From the NCBI RefSeq assembly GCF_002310835.1, contig NZ_CP011042.1, forward strand, positions 360,001-392,000: a stretch of DNA of 32,000 nucleotides, written 5' to 3'. The translations under genes and the position numbers were made by a program. How positions within the stretch are numbered: the stretch's first letter is position 1; the number at the start of each line of letters is the position of its first letter. The notes beneath the pieces were generated by a model. It ran no database searches and had not been told where the DNA came from. It was given only the letters and a program-made list of their open reading frames with translations. Origin of the DNA: Pseudoalteromonas tetraodonis (GTDB lineage Bacteria; Pseudomonadota; Gammaproteobacteria; Enterobacterales; Alteromonadaceae). This document shows, piece by piece, positions 3,057-20,445 of this stretch.

Positions 3057-3395
3057 GTAACTTACTCCTTTTTGATAACCTTATATTTATTAAAGTTCAA
3101 GGGTGTGAATACTACCGTGGTAAAGCTGAATAAGCGCTTAGTATATGTTACAAAGCGAATATGCAACCATGTCGCTATTTTTCTATATTGAGAAACTTAA
3201 TGAATCAACGCTAATGAACCACGGCCAAGAAGTGCCTAATTCTGTAATATGAGCCCCATGCAATATGAATCAATAAATTAAAACCCCGTGTCTCCTGTAT
3301 CGGGTCAGATCATTTGTCTTTAATCTTTGCTCTTTTCATTTACCCTCTGGGATGAACCTATCACGACTTTATTTTTAACTTATTGCGAGCTTTAA

Positions 3396-4088: not shown

Positions 4089-4931
4089 TTATGTTTTTGC
4101 TGCTAACGTGTCGCGTGCAGGCGTTAGAGCAAATACATCGTAATGGGGAAGTTGCCAATCAGTGCATATTTCTAAAAGTTCTCCTGTAGCTAAGAAATTG
4201 CGTACTTCAGGCTCAGGCAAAATAGCATAGCCTAACTCGTCGAGAACAAATTGAATCACAGTTTGCATATTATTAATGGTAATACGCGCTTTTGGTAGTG
4301 TTGTACTTACGCCGCGAGTAAGGTGTGTAAGCGTCGGATCAACAGCTATATGCGCAATGCGGTTATGCGCTTTTAGGTCATCCAGTGTGATTTTTGGTTG
4401 CTGTGCTAGTGCATGATTTTTATGAACACACAGTATTAATGGCCAACTAGCGAGCTGGCGTGCAATTAAGTTTGAGTCTTCGAGAGGGCCAATCGCCAGC
4501 ACTAAATCTATACCTGTTCTGATCATATCAATCGGCTCGTCAGAAAGCGTTAAGTGCACATCTATATCACTAAATTGGCTAATTAAATGCTTTACAGGCT
4601 CGCTTAATAACCCACCACCAAAACCAACAGGGGCGGCTAGTTTTAATTGCCCACTCGGACAATTTTGTAAATGCTGTAATTGTTCTGATGTAGCTGTTGC
4701 AACGGCAAGCATTTGTAAACAACTTTGATAATACAGTTCACCCGCCTCGGTAAGCGTTAATTCTCGAGGGCTGCGATTAAATAAACTCAAACCTACATCT
4801 AGCTCTATTTGTTTTATTTGCTGGCTAATTGCAGAGGTTGTCATTAAAAGGTCTGCGGCAGCTTTACTCATACTTCCCGTTTGTACTGTGCGAACAAATA
4901 TATTCAGGGTTTTAGTCAACTTATCACTCAT
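4089..4931 (-). CDS. LysR-family transcriptional regulator
   Basis: 280 aa. It has an N-terminal wHTH (FVRTVQTGSMSKAAADLLMTTSAISQQIKQIELDVGLSLFNRSPRELTLTEAG) followed by a substrate-binding domain. It is divergent from the TonB-dependent receptor gene. Confidence 0.9.
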   Translation of the reverse strand: MSDKLTKTLNIFVRTVQTGSMSKAAADLLMTTSAISQQIKQIELDVGLSLFNRSPRELTLTEAGELYYQSCLQMLAVATATSEQLQHLQNCPSGQLKLAAPVGFGGGLLSEPVKHLISQFSDIDVHLTLSDEPIDMIRTGIDLVLAIGPLEDSNLIARQLASWPLILCVHKNHALAQQPKITLDDLKAHNRIAHIAVDPTLTHLTRGVSTTLPKARITINNMQTVIQFVLDELGYAILPEPEVRNFLATGELLEICTDWQLPHYDVFALTPARDTLAAKT

Positions 4932-7092: not shown

Positions 7093-7113
7093 GGTTTTAT
7101 TTAGGTTCTTGTT

Positions 7114-7184
7114 CAATAATGTTTAAAAAGCAAAAAAGGCGGTTGGCTTTTTAGCTGTAGTCGCTTATTCTAGCTGCGTATTTA
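7114..7184 (+). repeat. Element Y: a degenerate copy of the attC-like repeat found at 12785-12870
   Basis: Hand alignment to element X gives about 54 matches over 71 nt with gaps. Shared blocks are ATAA, GTT(T/A)AAAAAG, CAAAAAA, GTTGGCTTTT, GTCGCT, ATT..TAGC and GT(A/T)TTTA. Confidence 0.5.
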
Positions 7185-7307
7185 GTCATTAAATGTAACT
7201 TTAAAGTTTACTAATAATTTATAACTTTCTTCAATCCCCAAAGGTATGCCTCGTTTGAACCACATAGCAAAACAAAAAGCCAACCCTGTATTTTTAGTAG
7301 GTGTCGT

Positions 7308-8777: not shown

Positions 8778-9278
8778 CTTCGATCGCAGAGGTAAGAGTG
8801 ACGGTCGACTCAATAATTTAAGCAAACAGAAACTAAGGTTCTAAATTTGTAGCCTATCTTATTAAATTAACAATGGTATTTCTATATTTAAGCGCCTGAA
8901 TAAAATATGCACTTCGCCCATTCCCTTGTTTGCCTGCTAATCTTTTTGAACACTTTATTGTGATATCGTACAAAGCCCACCTTGTCGTATTTTCGACAAC
9001 TTTTTAAGCATAAACGAGAGAGTCCTTAATGACTAAAGTTGACACTTATGCGAAGTTAGACAAAGAGCGAGAAGCTGTTAGTCAGAGCTTTTCTGTATGA
9101 CGTGAAGTTTTATCCGCTTGTTGGCAGTTTTTTCAATCCATTCTTAAAATTTATTTTGTTGTTATTTTCGAGTAGTTATCGTTTAATAACATGATGTTTT
9201 TTAAAGATAACTACTAGCGAATCTTCATCTCTTTAGTGAAAGCTAATGTCGGACCACACATAAGGAAATAGGTATAAA

Positions 9279-9773
9279 ATGGACACTACAATACGAAAAG
9301 CTGAATCAACCGATATCGCTGCAATAAAAATGCTGTGGCAGTTTTACCAATATCATCAGAGTATATTTGATTTAGAAGATGTTGGTTTAGATGGTTGCTA
9401 TGATATTGATGAAGAATATTTAGAATGTGTAGTGCGTGGTGAGGAAGACTGCATTATTTATCTTGTACTCGTTTCTAACCAAATTGCTGGTTTTGCTACC
9501 GTAGAACCAACTGAGATCGTTGGCAAAGAAATACCTGAGTTGGCTGATATTTTTATTCTACCCAAATATCGAAAACAGGGCATTGCCAAATTTGTTATTC
9601 AAAACTTGATGCCTGTTGAAACAAATCAGTGGCATGTAGCAGTTCATTTAAACGATAGTTCAGCGTTGAAATTTTGGAATAGTTTGTTTGCTAAATTAAA
9701 CGTTGTGCGTGTTGATAAAGTTGATCCCCCTGAAACAGAAGGCTACCACGAGTTTGTTATCACAAATAACTAG
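9279..9773 (+). CDS. GNAT-family N-acetyltransferase
   Basis: 164 aa. The acetyl-CoA motif A is ILPKYRKQGIAKFVI (R/Q-x-x-G-x-A/G). Confidence 0.85.
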   Translation: MDTTIRKAESTDIAAIKMLWQFYQYHQSIFDLEDVGLDGCYDIDEEYLECVVRGEEDCIIYLVLVSNQIAGFATVEPTEIVGKEIPELADIFILPKYRKQGIAKFVIQNLMPVETNQWHVAVHLNDSSALKFWNSLFAKLNVVRVDKVDPPETEGYHEFVITNN

Positions 9774-9862
9774 CAAGATTAACGTCTTCTGCGCTTAAGT
9801 AAAATTTGGTAAAGAGCGATAATAGGATATTCAGGTGAGTCGTCATTAAAATAGTGAGAATA

Positions 9863-9885
9863 AGAGGGAAACCTTCCTCTTTTTT
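9863..9885 (+). terminator. Rho-independent terminator after the GNAT gene
   Basis: AGAGGGAA-ACC-TTCCTCT hairpin (7 bp, one bulged G) followed by TTTTT. Confidence 0.6.
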
Positions 9886-10015
9886 GCATGTTTAAATAAG
9901 CTACAGTAAGCATAATATTTATAGCTGGTAATAACTTACACTATTTGTTATTAATATACGTTCACAAAATAAGGACGTTTTCGCGCTAAAATAGTGAAAG
10001 TGTCGTCTGATAAAG

Positions 10016-10029
10016 TTGTTATAAGCCGT
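10016..10029. repeat. Left copy of a perfect 14-bp inverted repeat (TTGTTATAAGCCGT). It contains a core-site-like GTT at 10018-10020.
   Basis: It is the exact reverse complement of 12780-12793 and ends 40 nt upstream of the nuclease gene start. Confidence 0.9.
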
Positions 10030-10069
10030 AAATTGGCATGGAGTATACCTGTGATTCTTGTAAAGGATT

Positions 10070-11140
10070 ATGATGGAATTAGCTAAAAGCCTTATTGATG
10101 TGCCTCAAACAGAACGAGGTGGTGAAATAGCTCAAAGAGGGTTTGACTTTCAAGCCTGTTGGGCTCTTTCTCATATGTTTGAATATGAATTACAAGATAA
10201 AGAATACGTTTTTGTTTTTGAATATCACGATGACGTACTTATTCTTGATTCAGAGAACCTTCCAAAAAAAGCTACGTTTGCCCAAGTTAAAACTAATGAG
10301 AAACCGTGGACATTAAGTAAATTAATTACGGCTACAAAGAAAAAGCCTATTTCATTTATTGGTAAGTTATTTGAGCAGAAAAGCAAATTTGACAATTCAG
10401 ATATTGAATTATTGTTTGTTTCTAATGCTTACTTTAGTTTTGATAAAAGAAACAAGTTTAAGGCAGATGAAATTAAGGAAGAAGATCAAAAAATTGTACT
10501 AGATAAAGTATCTAAGCAATTATCTAGTGAGGATGCCTTGGAACTCTCAAAGTTAACATTCTTAACATCTGATTTGAGTTTAGAAGATCACTCTGCACAC
10601 TTAAAAGGTAAAATTTGTGACTTCTTTGAAAGCTATTTCGACGATAGTATTGAAATTAATCCTACATCATTTGCTAGAACTCTAGAAAGTGCATGTAGAG
10701 ACAGAGCGAAAGTAAGATCATCAGATATTCGAAGCTTCGATGAGCTCATCAGAAGGAAAGGTTTTACTTCTTCATTTGTAAAAGACACGCTTAATAATAT
10801 TTGCGCAACAAAGAGCTTACAACCTGATTGGGAAAATGCTCGCTCGATATTCGCTGATATGGGTAAAAGCCCTATTCAATTACTGTCATTGCAATCGACT
10901 TTTACGCGTATAAGTATCTCAGTAAAGTCATCTACAAGTGTCGAGAAATTGTACTTGGAAAAAGCTGACTTGTTATTCGATAAGCAAGCAGTAGAAAAAT
11001 CTATGACTATGTATATCTTTGAATCAATTAAATTATTAGAAGTATCTCTTCCTGATTATTCTTTAGCCCTAACTGACCCTAAAAAAGAGTGCATCATTGT
11101 TTATTCAGTAATAAAAAATATTATAGGAGGCGAGGAATAA
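10070..11140 (+). CDS. Cap4/DUF4297-type PD-(D/E)xK dsDNA nuclease domain protein (Lamassu LmuA-like effector)
   Basis: 356 aa. The N-terminus reads ERGGEIAQRGFDFQACWALSHM ... FVFE51YHD54D55VLILD ... FAQ72VK74, the GG-x5-G-[FY]-x-[FY]-Q plus E..DD..QxK pattern of the Cap4 nuclease fold. The C-terminal ~220 aa are helical with no named motif. AAGGA precedes the start, and the stop overlaps the next gene's ATG. Confidence 0.6.
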   Translation: MMELAKSLIDVPQTERGGEIAQRGFDFQACWALSHMFEYELQDKEYVFVFEYHDDVLILDSENLPKKATFAQVKTNEKPWTLSKLITATKKKPISFIGKLFEQKSKFDNSDIELLFVSNAYFSFDKRNKFKADEIKEEDQKIVLDKVSKQLSSEDALELSKLTFLTSDLSLEDHSAHLKGKICDFFESYFDDSIEINPTSFARTLESACRDRAKVRSSDIRSFDELIRRKGFTSSFVKDTLNNICATKSLQPDWENARSIFADMGKSPIQLLSLQSTFTRISISVKSSTSVEKLYLEKADLLFDKQAVEKSMTMYIFESIKLLEVSLPDYSLALTDPKKECIIVYSVIKNIIGGEE

Positions 11141-12780
11141 TGAGTCTCATACATTTTAAAGATATATCTATCCTTTCTCGTAGAGATAAAAAAGGTTTTA
11201 GCTTTGATTTTTCACCTACTGTTAATATGATTTTTGGTGAAAATGATACAGGTAAATCTAGTTTAATAAAGGCGTTATACTTCACGCTTGGAGGCGATTG
11301 TCGGATTGATAAAGATTGGAAAGATGATGATATTATTACCAAGGTTGGCATAAGCGTTAAAGGAAAAAGTTATTCATTTATTAGGCATAATAAAAGGATT
11401 TCAATATTCCTAAACTCTGACGATGCAAAACCAATAGTAGCGTCTAGCCACATGAGTGCTATTGCAGATAAAGTTCGGGAAATTTTCGATTTTAATTTAC
11501 AGCTATCTTTCAAGAAAACAGGCAAACAAAGCCAAGCTAATCCTGCATGTTTATATCTACCGTTTTATATTGACCAAGATAATGGTTGGCATACTGTTTT
11601 ATCATCATTTCTAGGTTTAGCGATGTATGATGATTGGCAAAAAAACTCTTTACAGTTTCACTCAGGGATGAAACCAAAAGAATATTATGAACTGGTTGGT
11701 GAAATAAAAACAATACAGCTTGAGTTAGAAGAACTTAGCGCAACACTCACCGTAGTTCTTGCAGCTAAGAAAAGATTTGAAGAGTCATTCGGCAGAGTCT
11801 TATTTGATATAGATATTGAATATTATCAAGATTTGCTGAATAAGTTTTTAGCAAAATGTCAGGAACTAAACGAAGAAGAATCAGAGTTTAGATTAAAACT
11901 ATTAAGCTTACTCTCTGGTAGAGACTCAATAGCCAGTGAAATTGATGTATGCAGAAACCTCATAGAAAACTTTGATGACCATACGACTAGTGATGCTGCA
12001 GAAAAATATCACATGTTCGAAAATAGGGAGCAAATTTTAGAAATTCTTCCTCAAATGTATGACGAAAAACAAGCTCTAGACGACCAAATAAACTCAATTA
12101 AAGAAGAGTTGCGTCAGTCGAAAACATTGAGTTCAGAGCTAAACTCAATGATGCAAGAGGTTAGAGGTGAATTGACATTACAGGACGTGATTAAGTCTCA
12201 AGCGAGTAAAGAAGTAGAGTTTACTTTTGATGAACAAATAAAAAGCCTTCATGAAAAAATTGGTGCTCAAACGACAGCTTTAGAAGCGTTGATTAAAAAA
12301 CAAAATGAGTTTACTGATAAAAAACGTACCCAAAGTATTAACGATGATTTCAAATCTTATCTATCGATCGCACAGGAGAAGTTAGGTATAGGTTCGCCTA
12401 TTATTGCTCCCTTAATCCAGTATGGGAAAATAACAAAGAGTAAGACAGGAAGCAGAAGCCCAAGATCTATTTTTGCTTATCATTATGGTTTACTCAAAAC
12501 AATGGAAAAACACTCTTCAGTAAGTATGCTACCTATTGTAATAGATTCACCTAAACAGCAAGATCTTGATACTGAAGGTACCGAGAAGCTAATTGCTTTA
12601 TGTACTGAAGATCTAGGGAAGAATAATCAAGTAATTATTGGAGCTGTATCACTCGAAAGTAATATGCATGGTTACCACCAAATAGAACTTACAGAAAAGT
12701 ATAGTTTATTAAAATCAGAGGGGTATGAAGAAGCTTATAACCAAATTATGCCTTTTTATGAAAGAGGTATGTGCTATTAA
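11140..12780 (+). CDS. Coiled-coil Rad50/SMC-like ABC ATPase (Lamassu LmuB / DUF3732-like)
   Basis: I prefer the ATG at 11140 (GGAGG at 11126-11130, TAATG overlap with the upstream stop) over the track start at 11089. This gives 546 aa. The P-loop is GENDTGKSS (nt 11236-11259) in the context TGKSSLIKALYFTLGG, and a Q-loop-like YIDQD is present. Residues ~180-415 are E/K/L/Q-rich and heptad-like. The C-terminus has the signature-like TGSRSPRSIFAYHYGLL followed by MLPIVID469SPKQQDLD (Walker B / D-loop). Confidence 0.6.
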   Translation: MSLIHFKDISILSRRDKKGFSFDFSPTVNMIFGENDTGKSSLIKALYFTLGGDCRIDKDWKDDDIITKVGISVKGKSYSFIRHNKRISIFLNSDDAKPIVASSHMSAIADKVREIFDFNLQLSFKKTGKQSQANPACLYLPFYIDQDNGWHTVLSSFLGLAMYDDWQKNSLQFHSGMKPKEYYELVGEIKTIQLELEELSATLTVVLAAKKRFEESFGRVLFDIDIEYYQDLLNKFLAKCQELNEEESEFRLKLLSLLSGRDSIASEIDVCRNLIENFDDHTTSDAAEKYHMFENREQILEILPQMYDEKQALDDQINSIKEELRQSKTLSSELNSMMQEVRGELTLQDVIKSQASKEVEFTFDEQIKSLHEKIGAQTTALEALIKKQNEFTDKKRTQSINDDFKSYLSIAQEKLGIGSPIIAPLIQYGKITKSKTGSRSPRSIFAYHYGLLKTMEKHSSVSMLPIVIDSPKQQDLDTEGTEKLIALCTEDLGKNNQVIIGAVSLESNMHGYHQIELTEKYSLLKSEGYEEAYNQIMPFYERGMCY

Positions 12781-12793
12781 CGGCTTATAACAA
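12780..12793. repeat. Right copy of the 14-bp inverted repeat (ACGGCTTATAACAA)
   Basis: It is the exact reverse complement of 10016-10029 and starts on the last base of the ATPase stop codon. Confidence 0.9.
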
Positions 12794-12870
12794 GTCGTTA
12801 AAAAAGGACAAAAAACAGTTGGCTTTTGCCACTTCGTCGCTATTTATAGCCGCTTAACGAGGCGTTTTTA
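12785..12870 (+). repeat. Element X: an attC-like imperfect palindrome (candidate integron cassette recombination site)
   Basis: The layout is TTATAAC(R''-like)-AAG-TCGTTAA(L'') ... TTAACGA(L')-GGC-GTTTTTA(R'-like). The L boxes pair over 7 bp, the 3-nt spacers are unpaired, and the AAC/GTT triplets pair. A central hairpin (AGTTGGC-TTTT-GCCACT) has one bulged T. If G12864 is joined to 10019 onward, as in a circular cassette, the R box becomes a perfect 12-bp helix. Confidence 0.45.
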
Positions 12871-12875
12871 ATCGA

Positions 12876-13181
12876 ATGGATTTACATATGAAGAAATGGG
12901 TGCTTAAGAAAAGAATTTTTATGATAGGTTTTTTACCTTTCATGGGGGTATTCGTCGCACTTCTTTTAAATTTTATTGCAGGCTCTGCTTATACAACGTC
13001 ACTAAATCAAAGTGCAATTCGCGTATATTTTATGGGGTCTGCCATGTGGTCGGTACTTGCGCTTTTTTCAGGGGTATATATGTATTCCAAATGTAGTTCT
13101 ATGAATCATCTAAAGTTTATCCTTGGGGTATCGTCGGTCAGTTTAGGTATTACTATACCTTGGATAATAGGTATGTCGTAG
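12876..13181 (+). CDS. Hypothetical small membrane protein
   Basis: 101 aa with three hydrophobic spans (alternative start 12888, MKKWV..). No recognisable motif. Confidence 0.5.
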   Translation: MDLHMKKWVLKKRIFMIGFLPFMGVFVALLLNFIAGSAYTTSLNQSAIRVYFMGSAMWSVLALFSGVYMYSKCSSMNHLKFILGVSSVSLGITIPWIIGMS

Positions 13182-13243
13182 TAACTAAAACATAAAAAGT
13201 GGCTATGGTGCTCGATATCCGCTTTTGGCACTTTGCAGACAAT

Positions 13244-13298
13244 CGATAATGTAAGTCGAAATTAGTGTGTTGATTTAACGCGCTTAATTCGGTTTAAT
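13244..13298 (+). repeat. Element W: a short relative of element X (hairpin repeat)
   Basis: It shares CGATAAT-GT-AAGTCG at the 5' end and CGCTTAAT-TCG-GTTTAAT at the 3' end with X. TAAGTCGAAATTA (13252-13264) pairs with TAATTCGGTTTA (13285-13296): 12 pairs including 2 G-U, with one bulged A. Confidence 0.4.
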
Positions 13299-13484
13299 AT
13301 CAGCTAATAAATATGCTGAGTAATGCAGGGACAGCTTAGGGCAGCGCATTTCATTAACTTGGCCTGATGTTACATAGGTCACTAAAAGCCCCCCCTTTAT
13401 CAAGTAAAGCCCATTGTATAAATAGTTCCCACGCTGACACCCATACAGGGAGTGCTTCAGCTAATATGTGCCAAGGATAGCTCA

Positions 13485-13994
13485 TTGAAAAAATTAAGGT
13501 TTCTACTTGTTCTACTTAATGCCGCTTTCCTTGTAGGGATGATTATACCAGATGAAACTGTTATTCCTGTTGAGGGTGCAACACCCAACGATTGGAACCA
13601 TAATACTTTTTGGTATGAGCCATGGGGAAGCTCTGTGGTCCATAAGGGAATTAATATATTTGGTAAAAAAGGAACTACCACACTTTCTTCTAGTAAAGGC
13701 TTAGTCATTTATACGGGCACAATAAGTAAATGCGGGAATGTAGTGGCAGTTTTAGGGCCTAAATGGCGTATTCACTATTATGCGCATATGGACAGTTACT
13801 CTGTTACAACGGTTACTGTTGTTAAGACTGGCTCAGTTATTGGTGTTTTGGGGGATTCAGGTAATGCCCAAGGAAAACAGCAACACATTCATTACTCAAT
13901 CTTATCAATAATTCCAATTCCTTGGTTAGCTACAACACAGACTCAGGGTTGGAAAAGAATGTTTTTTTTAAACCCTCACGAAATGTTTATATAA
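13485..13994 (+). CDS. Secreted M23 (LytM-type) metallopeptidase-family protein with Asn in place of the HxxxD aspartate
   Basis: The track ORF starts at GTG 13452. I prefer TTG 13485 (AAGGA 7 nt upstream), which gives the signal-like MKKLRFLLVLLNAAFLVG. M23 motifs are HKGINIF (canonical HxGxDI), HYYAHM and GDSGNAQGKQQHIHYSI (HxH). Confidence 0.7.
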   Translation: MKKLRFLLVLLNAAFLVGMIIPDETVIPVEGATPNDWNHNTFWYEPWGSSVVHKGINIFGKKGTTTLSSSKGLVIYTGTISKCGNVVAVLGPKWRIHYYAHMDSYSVTTVTVVKTGSVIGVLGDSGNAQGKQQHIHYSILSIIPIPWLATTQTQGWKRMFFLNPHEMFI

Positions 13995-14097
13995 GTTGTA
14001 TTGAAAAAAGTGTTTAAGACAGGTATCGATATGAATCTCATTCACAAGTAAGGTGCTGTAAAACATTTACATCAGCGATTAATATTAAGGAGAATAT

Positions 14098-14442
14098 ATG
14101 CCTCATTTTATAATGGACTGTTCTGAAAGTTTTTTTGGGGAACATGATGAGGAATACAATATTGAACAAATTCATTTTGTAGCTCACACTACAGGTTTAT
14201 TCGATGAAGGTGATATAAAAGTTAGAATAAATCCATTTAATACTTTCTCTGTAGGGAATAAGCGTGAAGACTTTATCCATGTGTTTGCCCATATAATGCA
14301 AGGAAGAACAACAGAGCAAAAAGCGAACCTCTCACGAGTAATTGTTAGTAAGCTTGTTACTTTATTTCCTGAAATTTCTAACATTGCAATAAACATTAGT
14401 GATTTTGAAAAAGCGACATATTGCAATCGCACGATGCTTTAG
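14098..14442 (+). CDS. Tautomerase-superfamily protein (5-carboxymethyl-2-hydroxymuconate isomerase-like)
   Basis: 114 aa starting MPHFIMDCS. Pro-1 after Met removal and this length class are typical of CHMI-type tautomerases. AGGAG precedes the ATG. Confidence 0.6.
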   Translation: MPHFIMDCSESFFGEHDEEYNIEQIHFVAHTTGLFDEGDIKVRINPFNTFSVGNKREDFIHVFAHIMQGRTTEQKANLSRVIVSKLVTLFPEISNIAINISDFEKATYCNRTML

Positions 14443-14475
14443 CCAGCTATTATCTGCTATTTAACATAGTTTTGG

Positions 14476-14892
14476 ATGTTTATAAAACGTATGAGTAACT
14501 CTCAACTACAAAATCTAATATCTCTTTATACTGCTTTTGCTTTTGTACCTACGTTATTGCTTTATTTGATTTATAGTATATTTGGTTGGGTTGTATTTTC
14601 ACTTACATTAAACCCTTTTTTGGGTTATTTTTTGGTGGGTGGTGCTTATGGTTTATGGTCACTCCATTCATTAATAAAAACGATGAAAAACTTAACGGTA
14701 TTAAAGCATCCTATTATTGTGATAGTTGGATTGTTATTAGGTTGTAGTTTTTGTCCTGTCGTTTTAACAACGACTGAATTTAGTACGATGAAACCACAAG
14801 AATATATTTTTATGTATATTATTATTGCACCCTTTATAGCGACTTTACATTTGTTTTATTTATATAAAAAACAGTTGGCTAGCGTCTCTTGA
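14476..14892 (+). CDS. Hypothetical integral membrane protein
   Basis: 138 aa with about four TM helices (alternative start ATG 14491). No recognisable motif. Confidence 0.5.
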   Translation: MFIKRMSNSQLQNLISLYTAFAFVPTLLLYLIYSIFGWVVFSLTLNPFLGYFLVGGAYGLWSLHSLIKTMKNLTVLKHPIIVIVGLLLGCSFCPVVLTTTEFSTMKPQEYIFMYIIIAPFIATLHLFYLYKKQLASVS

Positions 14893-14946
14893 ACGATTAC
14901 TTTAACTATTTCTCAGTGGGCTTTATTAAACAAGGAGAACACAGGT

Positions 14947-15423
14947 ATGGAACCAAATTATTCAGAATATTCAATTTCAGAGCTAGAAGAGTCATTACGT
15001 GCTATCGATCAAGAAGCGTATCCTGAAAGAACAAATGAACTAAAGAAAGAGTTAAATAATCGCCTTGTAAACCCAACAACGAGTTATGAAGTTGAGGATG
15101 GTTTTGAGGCGAATGAACAATTTTATAAATGTCCTCATTGTGAAGAAAAAATTGGATTTTTTTCTAAAGCGTTACAAAGTTGGAGCAAGATAAGAGAGTG
15201 CCCGCAATGCAAAAAACCATTTGCAGTAACCTTTAATATAAAAGTGTTTTTCGTTGCGCTTTTACCTATGGTTATTTTTAATTATTTTATGATAAAACCT
15301 GTTTTAGGATCACTGGGATTAAGTAAGTCCATTGGTTTGGGGATAGTTTGTGGTGTGTTAATTATTATATCAACCCGCTTGATCAGAGTTGGTAGCGAAA
15401 GTAACACTACAAAAGAGGTTTAA
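14947..15423 (+). CDS. Zinc-ribbon protein with C-terminal transmembrane helices
   Basis: 158 aa with AAGGAG upstream. It has CPHC-x21-CPQC followed by two hydrophobic helices. Confidence 0.55.
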   Translation: MEPNYSEYSISELEESLRAIDQEAYPERTNELKKELNNRLVNPTTSYEVEDGFEANEQFYKCPHCEEKIGFFSKALQSWSKIRECPQCKKPFAVTFNIKVFFVALLPMVIFNYFMIKPVLGSLGLSKSIGLGIVCGVLIIISTRLIRVGSESNTTKEV

Positions 15424-15455
15424 GATAAATTTTGAAATGTTTTGTCTAGGTTTAT

Positions 15456-15479
15456 ACGCTTTATAGAAAAGCGTTTTTT
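15456..15479 (+). terminator. Rho-independent terminator
   Basis: ACGCTTT-ATAGA-AAAGCGT stem-loop followed by a T run. Confidence 0.7.
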
Positions 15480-15579
15480 GTTGGGAGTATTTTAGTAAGT
15501 TCGTTTAGTGTTGCTGCACACCTTGGTAAACTTAAACACTAGTTGTTCATTTTACTGAGCATATTTTTAGGAGTAGTCT

Positions 15580-15945
15580 TTGAAGTACATAACTATATTT
15601 TTAGTCCTTTTACTGGTTGGTTGTAATAGTATTAATGAAGCGGCAAATTCAAGTACTGTGTATATCAATGCGCAAACAGATTCACCTGCTAAATGGGTTG
15701 TGAAGATTGAACCAAAATATCCTGAAGATGCGGCTAAAAAAAGCGTAGAGGGCTACTTAAAGTTCAAAGCAATAGTTAATGAAGTTGGAGCGTTAGAAAG
15801 AGTTGAAGTAATTGAATCTGCCCCAAATGGTGTATTTGAAAAGGAAGGTTTACGGGCTTTAAAGCTATGGAGATTTAAGCCTGCGTTATTAAATGGTAGG
15901 CTGGTTAAGGTTGAGTACGCTGGTACTCTCGAGTGGAAGTTATAA
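15580..15945 (+). CDS. Stand-alone TonB C-terminal-domain lipoprotein
   Basis: 121 aa with a TTG start behind AGGAG. The signal and lipobox read MKYITIFLVLLLVGC. The TonB_C motif string is PKYPEDAAKKSVEGYLKFKAIVNEVGALERVEVIESAPNGVFEKEGLRALKLWRFKPALLNGRLV. Confidence 0.75.
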   Translation: MKYITIFLVLLLVGCNSINEAANSSTVYINAQTDSPAKWVVKIEPKYPEDAAKKSVEGYLKFKAIVNEVGALERVEVIESAPNGVFEKEGLRALKLWRFKPALLNGRLVKVEYAGTLEWKL

Positions 15946-16193
15946 TGTCTCTAGGGATGAGCATATCATGGAGATCTAAGCAACCTAAACAAAAACGATG
16001 TGATAGGTGTGAACTGTATTATTCTGAATTTTTGGATAAATGTACGCATTGTTCCGATTTAAACGAAGCACAATTACTTATGCTTAAGGCTAAACACCAA
16101 GAATCTCTTAAACAAAATGCTAAGCTTGGTAAATACTTATTTATAGCTGCTGTTGTAATTGGTGTATTACTTTTTGTTAGTTTTTTATGGTAG
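15945..16193 (+). CDS. Small zinc-ribbon protein with a C-terminal TM anchor
   Basis: The ATG at 15945 overlaps the upstream stop (TAATG); the track start is 15933. It has CDRC-x12-CTHC, a helical linker and a C-terminal TM segment (YLFIAAVVIGVLLFVSFLW). Confidence 0.5.
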   Translation: MSLGMSISWRSKQPKQKRCDRCELYYSEFLDKCTHCSDLNEAQLLMLKAKHQESLKQNAKLGKYLFIAAVVIGVLLFVSFLW

Positions 16194-16330
16194 CGTTGGG
16201 TTTTTCCTTAAGTGGAAGAGGGTAAGTTAACAGAGAAAAACCCCCAAATACATTCAGCTTAAAAACTCATATCCATCCGGTAACTTTAAAATTTATCACA
16301 CTGAACTATCCGTCCAACTAACAGTTGTTG

Positions 16331-18030: not shown

Positions 18031-20445
18031 TTATATTTCAAACTTATAGTTAAATTTAATGCCAACAGTAAGCGGGCGATTAATAAAGTAACCATAGTTA
18101 CGTTGTATGTCTGCGCCATTGGCTGTTGTAATATCCGCATCTGAGCGACGAACAGAAGTCACCGCATATTTATTAAATAGGTTATCTACATATAAAGTAG
18201 TCGACCACGCATCGGTGGTTAATTTAGCTGAAATATTACTTAAGCTATAACCCGGGAGTACTTCACCGTTGTCACGTAGGCCTACTTTTGAAATTACATC
18301 ACTTTGTGCAGTTAAACCATAGTTAATATCAAGGGTTTTGTCGTTAAACACTTCTGTTTGGTAGTTAATACCCATAGAGAACTGGTGCTCAGGTGAGCCC
18401 GGTAAACGGTCGCCATCTTTTGCGCCATCAGTGCCATCGGCATTAAATAAATACGGAGCGTCTGAGGTTAGTTCTGCTTTTGTATAGGCATAAGTTGCAT
18501 AGGCTGTAAATGAGTCTGATAAAATTGCACGCGTGGCAATTTCAATCCCTTTCGCATTTGCGCTACCAGCATTTGATAAGTAAGGTAATTGGCCTACTGT
18601 TGTTGCACCGGCAATTTGTGCGTTATCCCAATCTACATTGAATAGCGCAGCATTAAAGTGTAATTGGCTTCTCATCCAGGTACTTTTAAAACCTAGCTCA
18701 TAGTTAGTGGTTGTATCGGCATCGTATAGCATTTCATCAGGTGTACCACAGCCTGTTTGTTGGTCTTCAGGTAGAGGTGTAGGGCAAGGCACTAAGCCAT
18801 TTGAGCCACCAATTCTAAATCCTTCACTTATAGTTGCATACGCCATCACTGAATCTGTAAATTGGTATTTAGCATTAAATTTGAACAGATTACCGTTGTC
18901 ACCGGCTTCGTTCTCTTCAAAGTTAACTGAAACCTCATCAGGTGCAGCACCTTCATACAAGGTATTTGCTAATGGGAAATCAAAAGCCGCTTTTGATTCT
19001 ACGTCGTATTCGTAAAAACGCGCGCCAATGGTAATGTCGAGTTTATCGGTTACCTGGTAACCCACTTCACCAAAAAGTGCTGATTCAGTGACTTTGCTAC
19101 CAGTAATTTCTAAATATTCTAAAGAGTCTGGTCTAAGTTGTGCGCCATCGAAATTATCAACCGCGAATTGATCAAACCCTGGTGTGTACTCTCTGCTTGA
19201 TGCATCGGTGTCAGTTTTGTTGTAAAAACCACCAACAATCCAGCTTAAATCGCTATCGCTTTGTGAGACTAAACGCAGTTCTTGGGTAAACGTGTCTTTT
19301 TCGTCAATTTCACGGGTATAGGCTGAAAACGAGGGAAACTCTTCGTAGCCATAGTCTAAGCGAATTAAAAGATCTGTTTGGTCACGTTGCCCATCGGCGT
19401 CAAATTGTGAAATACCGGTGGCTGATACTAGCTCGGCAAAACCTAAGTCGGCTTTAAGTTCAAGGCTCAGTAATTGGTCTTCTTTTATCCGTGGCTCTTC
19501 ATAACGGTACGCTGACTCGTATTTGCCAATGCGATCACTTAAGCCATTGTTAGCATTAAGGCTGTTGTGATGAACAATGGAACGACCCTCAGTATCTTGC
19601 TTTTGATAGAAGTAGTTTAATGTGCCTTCGAATGACTCGTTTGCCTTGTAACGTAATGAAATACGCCCAGTTGTGGTGGTTTCACCGTTGGCGTCTTTTA
19701 CATTTTTAAGATTGCTGTTTACTGCATCAAGGTTTGTCCAATCAGGGTCGGTAATCGAAACACCTAGTTCACGAACGGTGTAGGCGTAGTCAATAAACCC
19801 TGGGTCTTCATAAATATTTAAGCTGGTACGAACAGCAAGTTTGTCTTCAATTAATGGTAAATTGAAGATAAAGCCCGCTTCACCACCGACCGAATCACTT
19901 TCTTGAGTTTGAAAAACATCACCAAATACTTCACCTGAGGTGAAATCAAGCTCTGGTTCTTTAAGCATGTAACGAATAGCGCCACCAAGTGTGCCTGCCC
20001 CATATAATGTGCCTTGCGGCCCAATAAGCACTTCCACACGCTCTATATCAACTAAACGCATATCAACTGAGACAGGAATTTCATTAATATAAGTGGCAAC
20101 AGTGCCACCATCTGATGAAGGCCCTGATGAATTAGTATTTAAACCACGGACTATAATAGGTGAACTGGCACGGCCACCTTGATCTGTAATTGTTAAGCCC
20201 GGTACCCAACGTGCTACATCGGCCAGCTCACTGATGTTTTGATCTTTCATTACATCAGCATCGAGCGCGGTAATGTTAAGAGGCGCAGCTTGAATTGAGC
20301 CACTTCGGCGCGTTGCTGTAACCTCAATAACTTCAAGCGATTTGTTCTTTTCAATAACTTGCTCTTGAGCCACTGCATTACTGCTAAATAATACACCGCT
20401 CAGTGCGCTTGATACAGCCAAGGTTAACAGGCTTGGTTTAAACAT
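18031..20445 (-). CDS. TonB-dependent outer-membrane receptor (804 aa)
   Basis: It has a signal peptide (MFKPSLLTLAVSSALSGVLFSSNAVA), a TonB-box-like LEVIEVTA, a plug (IERVEVLIGPQGTLYGAGTLGGAIRY) and a long beta-barrel. Confidence 0.9.
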   Translation of the reverse strand: MFKPSLLTLAVSSALSGVLFSSNAVAQEQVIEKNKSLEVIEVTATRRSGSIQAAPLNITALDADVMKDQNISELADVARWVPGLTITDQGGRASSPIIVRGLNTNSSGPSSDGGTVATYINEIPVSVDMRLVDIERVEVLIGPQGTLYGAGTLGGAIRYMLKEPELDFTSGEVFGDVFQTQESDSVGGEAGFIFNLPLIEDKLAVRTSLNIYEDPGFIDYAYTVRELGVSITDPDWTNLDAVNSNLKNVKDANGETTTTGRISLRYKANESFEGTLNYFYQKQDTEGRSIVHHNSLNANNGLSDRIGKYESAYRYEEPRIKEDQLLSLELKADLGFAELVSATGISQFDADGQRDQTDLLIRLDYGYEEFPSFSAYTREIDEKDTFTQELRLVSQSDSDLSWIVGGFYNKTDTDASSREYTPGFDQFAVDNFDGAQLRPDSLEYLEITGSKVTESALFGEVGYQVTDKLDITIGARFYEYDVESKAAFDFPLANTLYEGAAPDEVSVNFEENEAGDNGNLFKFNAKYQFTDSVMAYATISEGFRIGGSNGLVPCPTPLPEDQQTGCGTPDEMLYDADTTTNYELGFKSTWMRSQLHFNAALFNVDWDNAQIAGATTVGQLPYLSNAGSANAKGIEIATRAILSDSFTAYATYAYTKAELTSDAPYLFNADGTDGAKDGDRLPGSPEHQFSMGINYQTEVFNDKTLDINYGLTAQSDVISKVGLRDNGEVLPGYSLSNISAKLTTDAWSTTLYVDNLFNKYAVTSVRRSDADITTANGADIQRNYGYFINRPLTVGIKFNYKFEI

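What the first reader, a model, noticed from the sequence alone, without database searches (positions are those of the whole stretch)
10016..12870. A perfect 14-bp inverted repeat brackets the module, and the 3' copy opens an attC-like site, so the system looks like one integron-type cassette
**The repeat.** TTGTTATAAGCCGT (10016-10029) is the exact reverse complement of ACGGCTTATAACAA (12780-12793). The left copy lies 40 nt before the first start codon. The right copy begins on the last base of the second gene's stop codon. A 14-mer match confined to these two roughly 100-nt flanks is very unlikely by chance.

**The attC-like site.** The right copy is the 5' arm of an 86-nt imperfect palindrome (12785-12870). 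It has paired 7-bp L boxes (TCGTTAA/TTAACGA), unpaired 3-nt spacers and AAC...GTT R boxes.

**Cassette logic.** In integron cassettes the R'' box is complementary to the first bases of the same cassette, because recombination occurs at G|TT. Joining G12864 to 10019 onward gives a perfect 12-bp R helix. That predicts a 2,846-bp cassette (10019-12864) carrying the whole two-gene system.

**Weaker boxes around neighbours.**
- GNAT unit: GTTATTT at 9161 versus AAATAAC at 9764-9770.
- Small membrane ORF: GTTTTTA at 12864 versus CTAAAAC at 13185-13191.

**Significance.** Defence systems carried as integron cassettes have been reported only recently. A two-gene Lamassu-like cassette would be notable.
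Basis: partly seen in the sequence, partly recalled or inferred. Interest (0 to 1): 0.72.

Follow-up and report, generated by a model that had tools for sequence, protein, structure and literature searches.

The report
Lamassu defence genes as integron cassette
A two-gene Lamassu anti-phage system in a marine Pseudoalteromonas is packaged as one integron gene cassette next to an integrase-less attI-like site, which adds a clean example to the recently described class of defence-system cassettes rather than a new kind of element.

Summary

**The attC site.** The site at 12785-12870 belongs to a ~103-nt attC family. The family forms dense arrays next to integron integrases in marine Gammaproteobacteria. 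A covariance model built here scores the window site 62.2 bits (E = 2.9e-13). This copy has lost about 15 nt of its inner stem.

**The 5' end.** The 14-bp inverted repeat is the cassette's extended R box. Across 314 adjacent attC pairs in arrays of this family, cassette start and R'' flank usually match for 8-12 nt. The window matches for 12.

**The upstream site.** Positions 9811-10018 form a conserved ~210-bp leader, called Y here. Its right half is homologous to attI regions lying next to intI. In 33 metagenomic contigs, sequence diverges exactly after G|TT.

**The same cassette elsewhere.** It occurs with the same ends beside a different attI type in P. luteoviolacea, and inside an attC array in Microbulbifer.

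**Limits.** The window holds no intI, and the genomic attC folds poorly, so current mobility is doubtful. The neighbouring "weak boxes" are unsupported.

**Novelty.** Defence cassettes, including a Lamassu type 1-like one, are already published. This is a new member of a known kind.

The parts
9811..10018 (+). Leader 'Y': attI-like site at the head of the cassette row. The right ~100-158 nt is homologous to attI regions next to intI. It ends at the crossover ...GATAAAGTTG|TTA.
   Evidence: The Y HMM hits 9811-10021 at 202.5 bits, E = 1e-61, and this is the only copy in the window. Thirty-three metagenomic contigs and L124 share it and diverge right after G|TT. Homologous regions lie 228-260 nt from the intI start in L131 and L153.
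9862..9887 (+). Terminator-like hairpin plus T-run inside the leader (AAGAGGGAAACCTTCCTCTT TTTTG)
   Evidence: Terminator scan: 2 sites found against 0.2 expected. The hairpin is conserved in the Y alignment.
10016..10029 (+). Left copy of the 14-bp inverted repeat. Bases 10019-10029 are the first bases of the cassette.
10019..12864 (+). Predicted gene cassette, 2,846 bp, bounded by G10018|T10019 and G12864|T12865
   Evidence: A 12-nt complement between cassette start and R'' flank matches the family rule. Homology to L164 starts at 10022 and to L167 at 10018. Y homology in 33 contigs ends at 10020-10027.
10070..11140 (+). lmuA, the Lamassu effector with a Cap4 dsDNA nuclease (DUF4297) domain, 356 aa
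   Evidence: PADLOC LmuA PDLC00243, E = 1.8e-153, profile positions 1-360 of 361. Pfam PF14130, E = 3.9e-40.
11140..12780 (+). lmuB, an SMC/Rad50-like ATPase, 546 aa. Its start overlaps the lmuA stop (TAATG).
   Evidence: PADLOC LmuB PDLC00255, E = 5.9e-264, profile positions 1-549 of 550. Pfam AAA_23 above its cut-off; SMC_N below its cut-off.
12780..12793 (+). Right copy of the 14-bp inverted repeat: the extended R'' flank of the attC
12785..12870 (+). attC site. R'' TTATAAC 12785-12791; AAG; L'' TCGTTAA 12795-12801; inner region with a ~15-nt deletion of the 3' stem arm; L' TTAACGA 12854-12860; GGC; R' GTTTTTA 12864-12870.
   Evidence: Covariance model R1: 12780-12878, 62.2 bits, E = 2.9e-13.
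7104..7214 (+). Decayed relic of the same attC family. It has no AAC/GTT boxes. It lies upstream of the RIO1 kinase gene.
   Evidence: R1 gives 23.8 bits, E = 0.0016. It is 70% identical to the 12797-12856 core. Orthologous relics are in L067 and L001.
12865..16200 (+). Row of small same-strand ORFs (101 aa, M23 peptidase, CHMI-like, 138 aa, 158 aa, TonB_C, 86 aa). These are possibly former cassettes, but none has a recognisable attC.
   Evidence: No R1 hit. The 158-aa ORF has a 52% identical homologue inside the intI-linked array of L113. CHMI homologues lie in L065 and L087, two loci fetched by the attC pattern. Positions 13255-15502 are absent in sister strains.

Best explanation
lmuA-lmuB is an integron gene cassette (10019-12864). 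It sits as the first cassette at an attI-like site (leader Y, 9811-10018) in an integrase-less integron remnant. The host is Pseudoalteromonas tetraodonis GFC or a near-identical strain, probably on its second chromosome.

**Shown**
- The 3' site is a member of a structured attC family used by chromosomal integrons of marine Gammaproteobacteria.
- The cassette ends obey that family's R-box rule.
- The same cassette, with the same 5' end and the same R'' flank, is joined to a different attI type in another species and lies in an attC array in another genus.

**Inferred**
- An integron integrase excised the cassette as a circle by recombining folded bottom-strand attC sites at G|TT. It then inserted the circle at the attI-like site by attI x attC recombination.
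- The first position next to the leader gives transcription from a leader promoter.
- The genes act as a type I Lamassu. The SMC-like LmuB senses phage DNA or replication structures and releases the Cap4-type nuclease LmuA, giving abortive infection.
- In this lineage the cassette is now probably fixed. There is no intI in 32 kb, the attC has an internal deletion, and its genomic R' half (GTTTTTA) pairs poorly.
For: **The attC family is real and the window site belongs to it.**
- A 21-base pattern from the site hits more than 120 loci in many marine genera.
- In the 114-sequence alignment, 87.9% of cells pair, against 50% or less when the partner columns are slid. There are 239 double-sided changes against 102 in shuffles. 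The L-box pairs covary: UA 50 / CG 32; CG 50 / UA 29 / AU 19; GC 72 / AU 34.
- The window site scores 62.2 bits, E = 2.9e-13. Array members score 55-129 bits.

**The family belongs to integrons.**
- IntI homologues at 41-50% identity to IntI1 lie in at least 8 of these loci.
- The one next to leader Y in L131 scores 456.8 bits on TIGR02249, whose cut-off is 265.

**The cassette ends fit the rule.**
- In 314 adjacent attC pairs the perfect complement run is mostly 8-12 nt. In controls the mode is 4, and runs of 11 or more occur in 0.2%. The window run is 12.
- First cassettes after Y give runs of 9-12 nt in at least 10 contigs.

**Y behaves as an attI.**
- Thirty-three contigs diverge exactly after AAAGTTG|TT.
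- Pairs of contigs share the same left flank but carry different first cassettes: L143/L163, L151/L154, L141/L150.

**The same cassette occurs elsewhere with the same ends.**
- L164 (P. luteoviolacea) is 90% identical in nucleotides from window 10022 to 12827. It is preceded by the attI of complete Pseudoalteromonas integrons...GGGTCGATGTTAAATTG|TTATAAGCCGT.
- L167 (Microbulbifer) is homologous from 10018 to 12794. Its ends carry a compensatory change (TTATAAGCCC / GGGCTTATAA). It has weak attC hits on both sides and an IS110-family insertion sequence inside the attC.

**Folding.** The circularised junction folds canonically at -20.4 kcal/mol, z = -4.97.

**Gene identity.**
Against: - No intI or intI remnant lies anywhere in the 32-kb window.
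- I could not establish whether strain GFC has an intI elsewhere. An integron integrase exists in another P. tetraodonis assembly.
- The genomic attC does not adopt the canonical fold and is no more stable than shuffles (z = -0.44).
- Only one good attC is present. All 23 contigs that encode the identical LmuB protein show the same context, so there is no sign of recent movement.
- Most copies of leader Y type a have no adjacent intI and share a sharp left boundary that I cannot explain.
- The sigma-70 scan found no plus-strand promoter in the leader.
Confidence: 0.85

Rival explanations
1. The cassette is a fossil. It arrived by integron recombination but can no longer be excised. It is now a fixed chromosomal defence locus, and the repeats are historical scars.
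For: - No intI in the window.
- The attC lacks about 15 nt of its 3' stem arm, and its bottom strand folds no better than shuffles.
- R' is GTTTTTA, so only GTT continues the R helix.
- All 23 contigs with the identical LmuB protein share one context.
- The P. luteoviolacea copy has an even shorter attC, with GCT in place of GTT.
Against: - The R and L boxes and the AAC/GTT triplets are intact in the window.
- 18% of family members (81 of 441) also have an own-R' run of 3 or less.
- The inner part of attC sites is known to be tolerant of variation (own knowledge).
- First cassettes after intI-less copies of Y differ between related contigs. That fits recombination by an integrase acting in trans.
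Confidence: 0.55
2. The X-like element is a dispersed REP/MITE-type intergenic repeat, and the inverted repeat is incidental.
For: - A second, degraded copy lies at an unrelated intergenic site, 7104-7214.
- A true MITE sits beside that copy in a sister strain.
Against: - Elsewhere the element forms same-strand arrays spaced 250-900 bp apart, with one ORF per unit, next to integron integrases.
- Its pairing covaries like an attC.
- Its flanks follow the cassette-specific R-box rule.
- A 14-mer match appeared in 0 of 20,000 shuffles.
Confidence: 0.02
3. The 14-bp inverted repeats are terminal inverted repeats of a small transposon that carries lmuAB.
For: - Perfect inverted repeats bracket the two genes.
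- The Microbulbifer copy keeps complementary ends through a paired change.
- IS elements flank that copy.
Against: - No transposase lies inside the unit, and no target-site duplication is visible.
- Another lmuAB relative (L166) has quite different complementary ends, TTAGCAAA / TTTGCTAAC. That is expected for cassettes, not for one transposon family.
- The left junction coincides with the crossover point of two different attI types.
Confidence: 0.03

Closest known systems
brc128 (gcu128), a two-ORF Lamassu type 1-like cassette of mobile integrons (Kieffer et al., bioRxiv 10.1101/2024.07.02.601719)
   Same: Both are two-gene Lamassu-like systems carried as a single integron cassette.
   Different: - brc128 is on mobile integrons. 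This cassette is chromosomal, in an integrase-less remnant of a marine Pseudoalteromonas.
- Here LmuA is a Cap4/DUF4297 nuclease.
- Sequence relatedness to brc128 was not tested, because no brc128 sequence was at hand.
Defence cassettes of sedentary chromosomal integrons (Darracq et al., bioRxiv 10.1101/2024.07.02.601686)
   Same: - Anti-phage systems stored as cassettes behind species-typical attC sites in marine Gammaproteobacteria.
- That study counted cassettes of both complete integrons and CALINs.
   Different: - That paper stresses small, streamlined systems. This cassette is 2.85 kb with full-length LmuA and LmuB.
- Its main text mentions Lamassu only in passing, and Pseudoalteromonas not at all.
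CALIN / SALIN elements: attC sites lacking an integron integrase (IntegronFinder classes; quoted, otherwise own knowledge)
   Same: An attC-bearing cassette with no intI nearby.
   Different: Here the cassette is also preceded by a recognisable attI-like leader, which those classes do not consider. Only one good attC is present, so the locus is SALIN-like rather than CALIN-like.
Original two-gene Lamassu (LmuA DUF4297 + LmuB) and DdmABC of Vibrio cholerae (own knowledge; DdmABC is mentioned)
   Same: A Cap4/DUF4297 effector plus an SMC-like ATPase. Both match the PADLOC LmuA and LmuB models over their full length.
   Different: There is no LmuC/DdmB-like third gene in the cassette. Function was not tested.

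Membership tests
Integron gene cassette | A 3' attC site with R''-L''...L'-R' boxes and conserved AAC / GTT triplets | tested here: met
   Boxes read directly at 12785-12870. The layout is the same as in the 114-member family alignment.
Integron gene cassette | The attC is recognised by a covariance model of attC sites | tested here: met
   The family-specific model R1 gives 62.2 bits, E = 2.9e-13. Array members score 55-129 bits. The generic IntegronFinder model was not available.
Integron gene cassette | The bottom strand folds into the attC hairpin | tested here: inconclusive
   The genomic form does not take the canonical fold (z = -0.44). The circular-junction form does (-20.4 kcal/mol, z = -4.97). 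A canonical family member gives z = -4.07.
Integron gene cassette | The first bases of the cassette are complementary to its own R'' flank, with the crossover at G|TT | tested here: met
   The window run is 12 nt. The family norm is 8-12 nt across 314 adjacent pairs, and the control mode is 4.
Integron gene cassette | The same unit occurs in other contexts with the same boundaries | tested here: met
   L164 (homology from window 10022, R'' flank kept) lies beside another attI type. L167 (homology from 10018 to 12794) lies in an attC array.
Integron gene cassette | Excision and insertion by IntI | not testable with these tools
   This needs recombination assays.
Complete integron | An intI gene adjacent to the attI and divergent from the cassettes | tested here: not met
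   No Phage_integrase hit was found among 30 of the window's ORFs. tblastn with IntI1 and with two Pseudoalteromonas-type IntI proteins found nothing.
Complete integron | An attI site at the head of the cassette row | tested here: met
   Leader Y is homologous to the regions next to intI in L131 and L153. Junctions diverge at G|TT in 33 contigs. Function as a recombination site is inferred.
Complete integron | A Pc promoter reading into the cassettes | tested here: inconclusive
   The consensus scan finds no plus-strand sigma-70 match in 9700-10120.
Lamassu (type I, two-gene) | An LmuA effector with a Cap4/DUF4297 nuclease domain | tested here: met
   PADLOC E = 1.8e-153, full length. Pfam PF14130 at 138.6 bits against a cut-off of 26.2.
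Lamassu (type I, two-gene) | An adjacent LmuB SMC-like ATPase | tested here: met
   PADLOC E = 5.9e-264, full length. The genes overlap by one base.
Lamassu (three-gene, DdmABC-like) | An LmuC / kleisin-like third gene | tested here: not met
   No third ORF lies in the cassette. The next ORF (101 aa) has no PADLOC, Pfam or NCBIfam hit.
Lamassu | Protection against phage or plasmids | not testable with these tools
   This needs an experiment.
REP/MITE-type dispersed repeat | Solitary copies at unrelated intergenic sites, with no link to integrases | tested here: not met
   Copies form arrays with intI. The one solitary copy in the window is a decayed relic.

The most novel reading that the evidence does not exclude
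Leader Y type a may be an 'orphan attI'. It is an integrase-less attI-type landing pad present at several chromosomal loci, and sometimes twice per genome, in Pseudoalteromonas. Each copy heads a short cassette row whose first cassette is exchanged by an integrase acting in trans. In that reading, lmuAB sits in the expressed first slot of such a satellite site.

The evidence is suggestive:
- All 18 type-a copies share one sharp left boundary with unrelated left flanks.
- None has an adjacent intI.
- They carry at least 14 different first cassettes, which obey the R-box rule.
- Two pairs of contigs share the left flank but differ in the first cassette.

Replacement of the first cassette by homologous recombination, using Y and a downstream attC as anchors, would look the same.
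Probability: 0.35. Interest if true: 0.6.

Novelty: new member of a known kind. Interest (0 to 1): 0.45.

Why it matters
**What it adds.** This is a well-delimited natural example of a full-size, two-gene Lamassu system moving as one integron cassette. Its ends are confirmed by comparison across three genera. This supports the view that integrons circulate complete defence systems among marine bacteria, not only streamlined single genes.

**Resources produced along the way.**
- A covariance model and alignment of an attC family shared across many marine genera.
- Two Pseudoalteromonas attI types with exact crossover points.

Both would let cassette contents, including further defence systems, be mined from these genomes and from metagenomes.

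**Open question.** The integrase-less attI-like leaders raise a testable question about integrase activity in trans.

Tried and rejected
- **Rfam.** No known RNA family matches the window at gathering thresholds. None matches 9700-10100 at E <= 1.
- **More copies of the element.** Aligning candidate copies at 3110-3220 and 13175-13290 gave nothing convincing.
- **The GNAT and 101-aa 'cassettes'.**
  - Neither the attC model (filters off) nor the Y model finds a site around them.
  - GTTATTT / AAATAAC is only a 7-nt run and GTTTTTA / CTAAAAC a 5-nt run. Both are below the family norm.
- **Y as a giant attC.** The tandem pair of Y copies in L162 shows no R'' complement to the start of the intervening cassette, so this idea was dropped.
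- **A second model hit at 20065-20137.** It scores 22.7 bits but lies inside a TonB-dependent receptor gene, and only the structure matches. I treated it as a false positive.
- **The strain indel at 13255-15502.** Its left breakpoint is not at a G|TT and no attC is recognisable there.
- **intI in the same genome.**
  - An integron integrase annotated as P. tetraodonis turned out to be in a different assembly.
  - Contigs encoding a multispecies Pseudoalteromonas IntI did not include strain GFC.
- **Supplement of Darracq et al.** The file held as text contains neither 'Lamassu' nor 'Pseudoalteromonas'.
Full report
**1. Observation**

The 14-mer TTGTTATAAGCCGT (10016-10029) is the exact reverse complement of ACGGCTTATAACAA (12780-12793). 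The left copy ends 40 nt before the ATG at 10070. The right copy begins on the last base of the stop codon at 12778-12780.

I shuffled the two flanks (9774-10069 and 12778-12875) 20,000 times. A 14-mer inverted match never appeared, and a 12-mer appeared 46 times.

- AAC, 12789-12791
- spacer AAG, 12792-12794
- TCGTTAA, 12795-12801
- TTAACGA, 12854-12860
- spacer GGC, 12861-12863
- G|TT, 12864|12865

**2. The genes**

ORF 10070-11140 matches PADLOC LmuA over its full length (E = 1.8e-153) and carries the Pfam Cap4 nuclease domain. ORF 11140-12780 matches PADLOC LmuB over its full length (E = 5.9e-264). The two genes overlap by one base. No third Lamassu gene is present.

The LmuB protein is identical to PTE01_34160 of Pseudoalteromonas tetraodonis GFC. 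The window is 99.98% identical to that assembly's 728-kb contig. An orthologous stretch lies on chromosome 2 of another Pseudoalteromonas (L067).

**3. What the 3' site is**

The core of the site recurs once in the window, at 7121-7180, with 70% identity. I took a 21-base pattern from it and searched one genome per species.

- The genera include Colwellia, Shewanella, Pseudoalteromonas, Vibrio, Marinomonas, Alteromonas and Thalassotalea. A few metagenome-assembled genomes (MAGs) from other phyla also match.

The copies share a ~103-nt consensus: CTAAC-AAG-TCGTTAA-...-GGACAAATAACAGTTGGC-loop-GCCAACATATTATTTGCC-..-TTAACGA-GGC-GTTA. Their flanks diverge right outside TAAC and GTTA.

For an attC-type structure on the 114-sequence alignment:
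- 87.9% of cells pair, against 50% or less when the partner columns are slid.
- There are 239 double-sided changes, against 102 in shuffles.
- The L box covaries strongly: UA 50 / CG 32; CG 50 / UA 29 / AU 19; GC 72 / AU 34.

I built a covariance model from this alignment and ran it over the window with filters off:

| Position | Score | E-value | Reading |
|---|---|---|---|
| 12780-12878 | 62.2 bits | 2.9e-13 | attC, family member |
| 7104-7214 | 23.8 bits | 0.0016 | decayed relic |
| 20065-20137 | 22.7 bits | 0.003 | inside a gene; false positive |

In other genomes the same model finds dense same-strand arrays. There are about 20 sites in 8 kb of L014, and members score 55-129 bits.

Full-length IntI homologues lie in at least eight of these loci. 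One of them scores 456.8 bits on the NCBIfam integron-integrase model, whose cut-off is 265. The element is therefore an attC family, not a REP or MITE.

Compared with the consensus, the window copy lacks about 15 nt of the 3' arm of the inner stem. Its R' is GTTTTTA.

**4. The 5' boundary**

In arrays of this family I measured the perfect complement run between the bases after G|TT of one attC and the R'' flank of the next attC.

- Across 314 adjacent pairs the run is mostly 8-12 nt, with a mode of 11-12.
- Controls, using an attC's own downstream sequence or random pairs, have a mode of 4. Runs of 11 or more occur in 0.2% of random pairs.

The window gives 12 (GTTATAAGCCGT against ACGGCTTATAAC).

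Folding agrees:

| Bottom-strand sequence | Energy (kcal/mol) | z-score | Canonical fold? |
|---|---|---|---|
| Genomic attC | -9.5 | -0.44 | no |
| Circular junction (G12864 joined to 10019 onward) | -20.4 | -4.97 | yes: 13-bp R helix, bulged spacers, 7-bp L box |
| Canonical family member | -19.2 | -4.07 | yes |

**5. What lies upstream**

The spacer between the GNAT gene and lmuA is itself a repeated element. It recurs in L067 (twice) and in L124.

I scanned metagenomes with its last 22 bases and recovered 33 contigs. All share a ~210-bp element, called Y here. In the window it spans 9811-10018 (HMM 202.5 bits, single copy). All of them diverge exactly after ...GATAAAGTTG|TT, giving at least 25 different continuations.

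Downstream of Y come one or two ORFs and then a family attC. In at least ten contigs the first cassette shows a 9-12 nt R-box complement.

In L131 an intact integron integrase lies divergently. Its ATG is about 228 nt from the crossover, behind a LexA-like box. In L153 the same arrangement holds, but the integrase has lost its catalytic tyrosine region. L124 keeps only a frameshifted start. The window shares the right ~100-158 nt of Y with these.

Complete Pseudoalteromonas integrons (L169-L175) have a second attI type...CGACCCATTGGGTCGATATTAAATTG|TT. Six different first cassettes follow it, and they diverge at the same point. Y is therefore best read as an attI-type site.

In the window, and in all 18 'type a' copies, the left ~50 nt differ from the intI-linked relatives. 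No intI is adjacent, and the genes to the left are ordinary chromosomal genes.

Pairs of contigs share the same left flank but carry different first cassettes: L143/L163, L151/L154 and L141/L150. L154 shares the window's downstream sulfotransferase gene but has other cassettes after Y.

**6. The same cassette elsewhere**

LmuB relatives at 84-95% identity are mostly on ~3-kb contigs. That is what assembly breaks at repeats would produce.

- **P. luteoviolacea (L164).** The cassette is 90% identical in nucleotides from window 10022 to 12827, in an unrelated neighbourhood. It is joined at ...GGGTCGATGTTAAATTG|TTATAAGCCGT to the second attI type. Its attC is cut down further.
- **Microbulbifer sp. 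HZ11 (L167).** Homology runs from 10018 to 12794. The ends changed together (TTATAAGCCC / GGGCTTATAA). Weak attC hits flank the unit on both sides. An IS110-family insertion sequence lies immediately after the R'' box, inside the attC. By my own knowledge this resembles the IS1111-attC group.
- **L166.** A more distant relative has different but again complementary ends, TTAGCAAA / TTTGCTAAC.

One cassette joined at one G|TT to two unrelated attI types, and sitting in an attC array in a third genus, is what integrase-mediated insertion predicts.

**7. What is not supported**

- The window holds no intI and no remnant of one.
- I could not show an intI in strain GFC. A P. tetraodonis integrase exists in another assembly.
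No attC or Y hit accompanies them.
- The strain indel at 13255-15502 lacks clear attC boundaries.
- The small ORFs from 12865 to 16200 may be old cassettes. The 158-aa ORF has a 52% identical homologue in the intI-linked array of L113. This remains inference.

**8. Mechanism and status**

Shown:
- attC membership of the 3' site
- the cassette ends
- the attI-like junction
- recurrence of the cassette in other contexts

Inferred:
- excision as a circle and insertion at attI by IntI
- expression from the leader
- Lamassu abortive-infection function

Current mobility is doubtful. The attC carries a deletion and folds poorly, no intI is nearby, and all 23 contigs with the identical protein share one context.

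**9. Comparison with what is known**

Defence systems in integron cassettes were reported in 2024-2025. One of them is brc128, a two-ORF Lamassu type 1-like cassette of mobile integrons.

This locus is a new member of that kind. It is chromosomal, in Pseudoalteromonas, full-size, and in an integrase-less remnant that still has a recognisable attI-like leader. The most novel reading still open is that such leaders are orphan attI sites served in trans.

Noticed in passing
window 7104-7214: A decayed relic of the same attC family, with its AAC/GTT boxes lost. It lies between a TonB-dependent receptor gene and the RIO1 kinase gene. It is conserved at the same place in L067 and L001.
   Followed up: partly
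L001 5684-5953 (insertion relative to window ~7105): A ~260-270-bp MITE-like insertion with terminal inverted repeats CTAGGGTCTGTTGACCTTT...AAAGGTCAACAGACCCTAG. It is present in a sister strain and absent from the window, right beside the relic attC.
   Followed up: no
window 13255-15502: A block of four genes (M23 peptidase, CHMI-like tautomerase, and 138-aa and 158-aa ORFs) is replaced by 97 bp in sister strains (L001, L004-L006, L008, L010). The right breakpoint is at G|TTT(A/C)GTG. The left breakpoint is not at a G|TT.
   Followed up: partly
window 9811-9860; L164 ~4625-4650: The left ~50 nt of leader Y type a contains a small hairpin with a GAGCGA loop. It has a sharp, conserved left boundary in 17 metagenomic copies whose left flanks are unrelated. 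A similar motif (CTGCTTTGAGCGAAAAGTGGAC) lies left of the other attI type in P. luteoviolacea. Its origin is unexplained.
   Followed up: partly
alignment A2, columns 27-31 / 55-59 (corresponds to window ~12803-12807 / 12829-12833): The attC family carries a second covarying helix (CAGGA/TCCTG against AAGGA/TCCTT; pair types AU 66, CG 32). It excludes the long stem, which also covaries. These are two mutually exclusive conserved pairings.
   Followed up: no
L125 2918-3240; also L024, L097, L104 left flanks: Four genomes share the flank ...CATGCCCATGCTGGGCGTAC, joined inside the R'' box of a family attC. In L125, Rfam finds a group II intron (RF02001, 98 bits) on the opposite strand there. This points to attC-targeting group II introns.
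   Followed up: partly
L167 7655-8800: An IS110-family transposase element is inserted in the lmuAB attC of Microbulbifer, directly after the R'' box. The rest of the attC appears to follow at 8810-8894. This looks like the attC-targeting IS1111 group.
   Followed up: partly
L170 2994-3743; L157 148-1882; L164 7751-10075; L166 3215-6514: Other likely defence cargo sits next to these sites. There is a Bro-N/BstA_C protein as first cassette beside an intact intI (L170). L157 has a two-ORF first cassette (353 + 234 aa). ABC-ATPase gene pairs follow lmuAB in L164 and L166, and the L166 pair comes with a reverse transcriptase gene.
   Followed up: no
window 20065-20137: The attC model gives 22.7 bits (E = 0.003) to a hairpin inside the TonB-dependent receptor gene on the opposite coding strand. 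Only the structure matches, so it is probably a false positive.
   Followed up: no
L162 8346-8556 and 9408-9618; L067 2441-2628 and 3868-3992: Leader Y occurs twice within about 1-1.4 kb in two Pseudoalteromonas contigs, so a genome can hold several copies.
   Followed up: no
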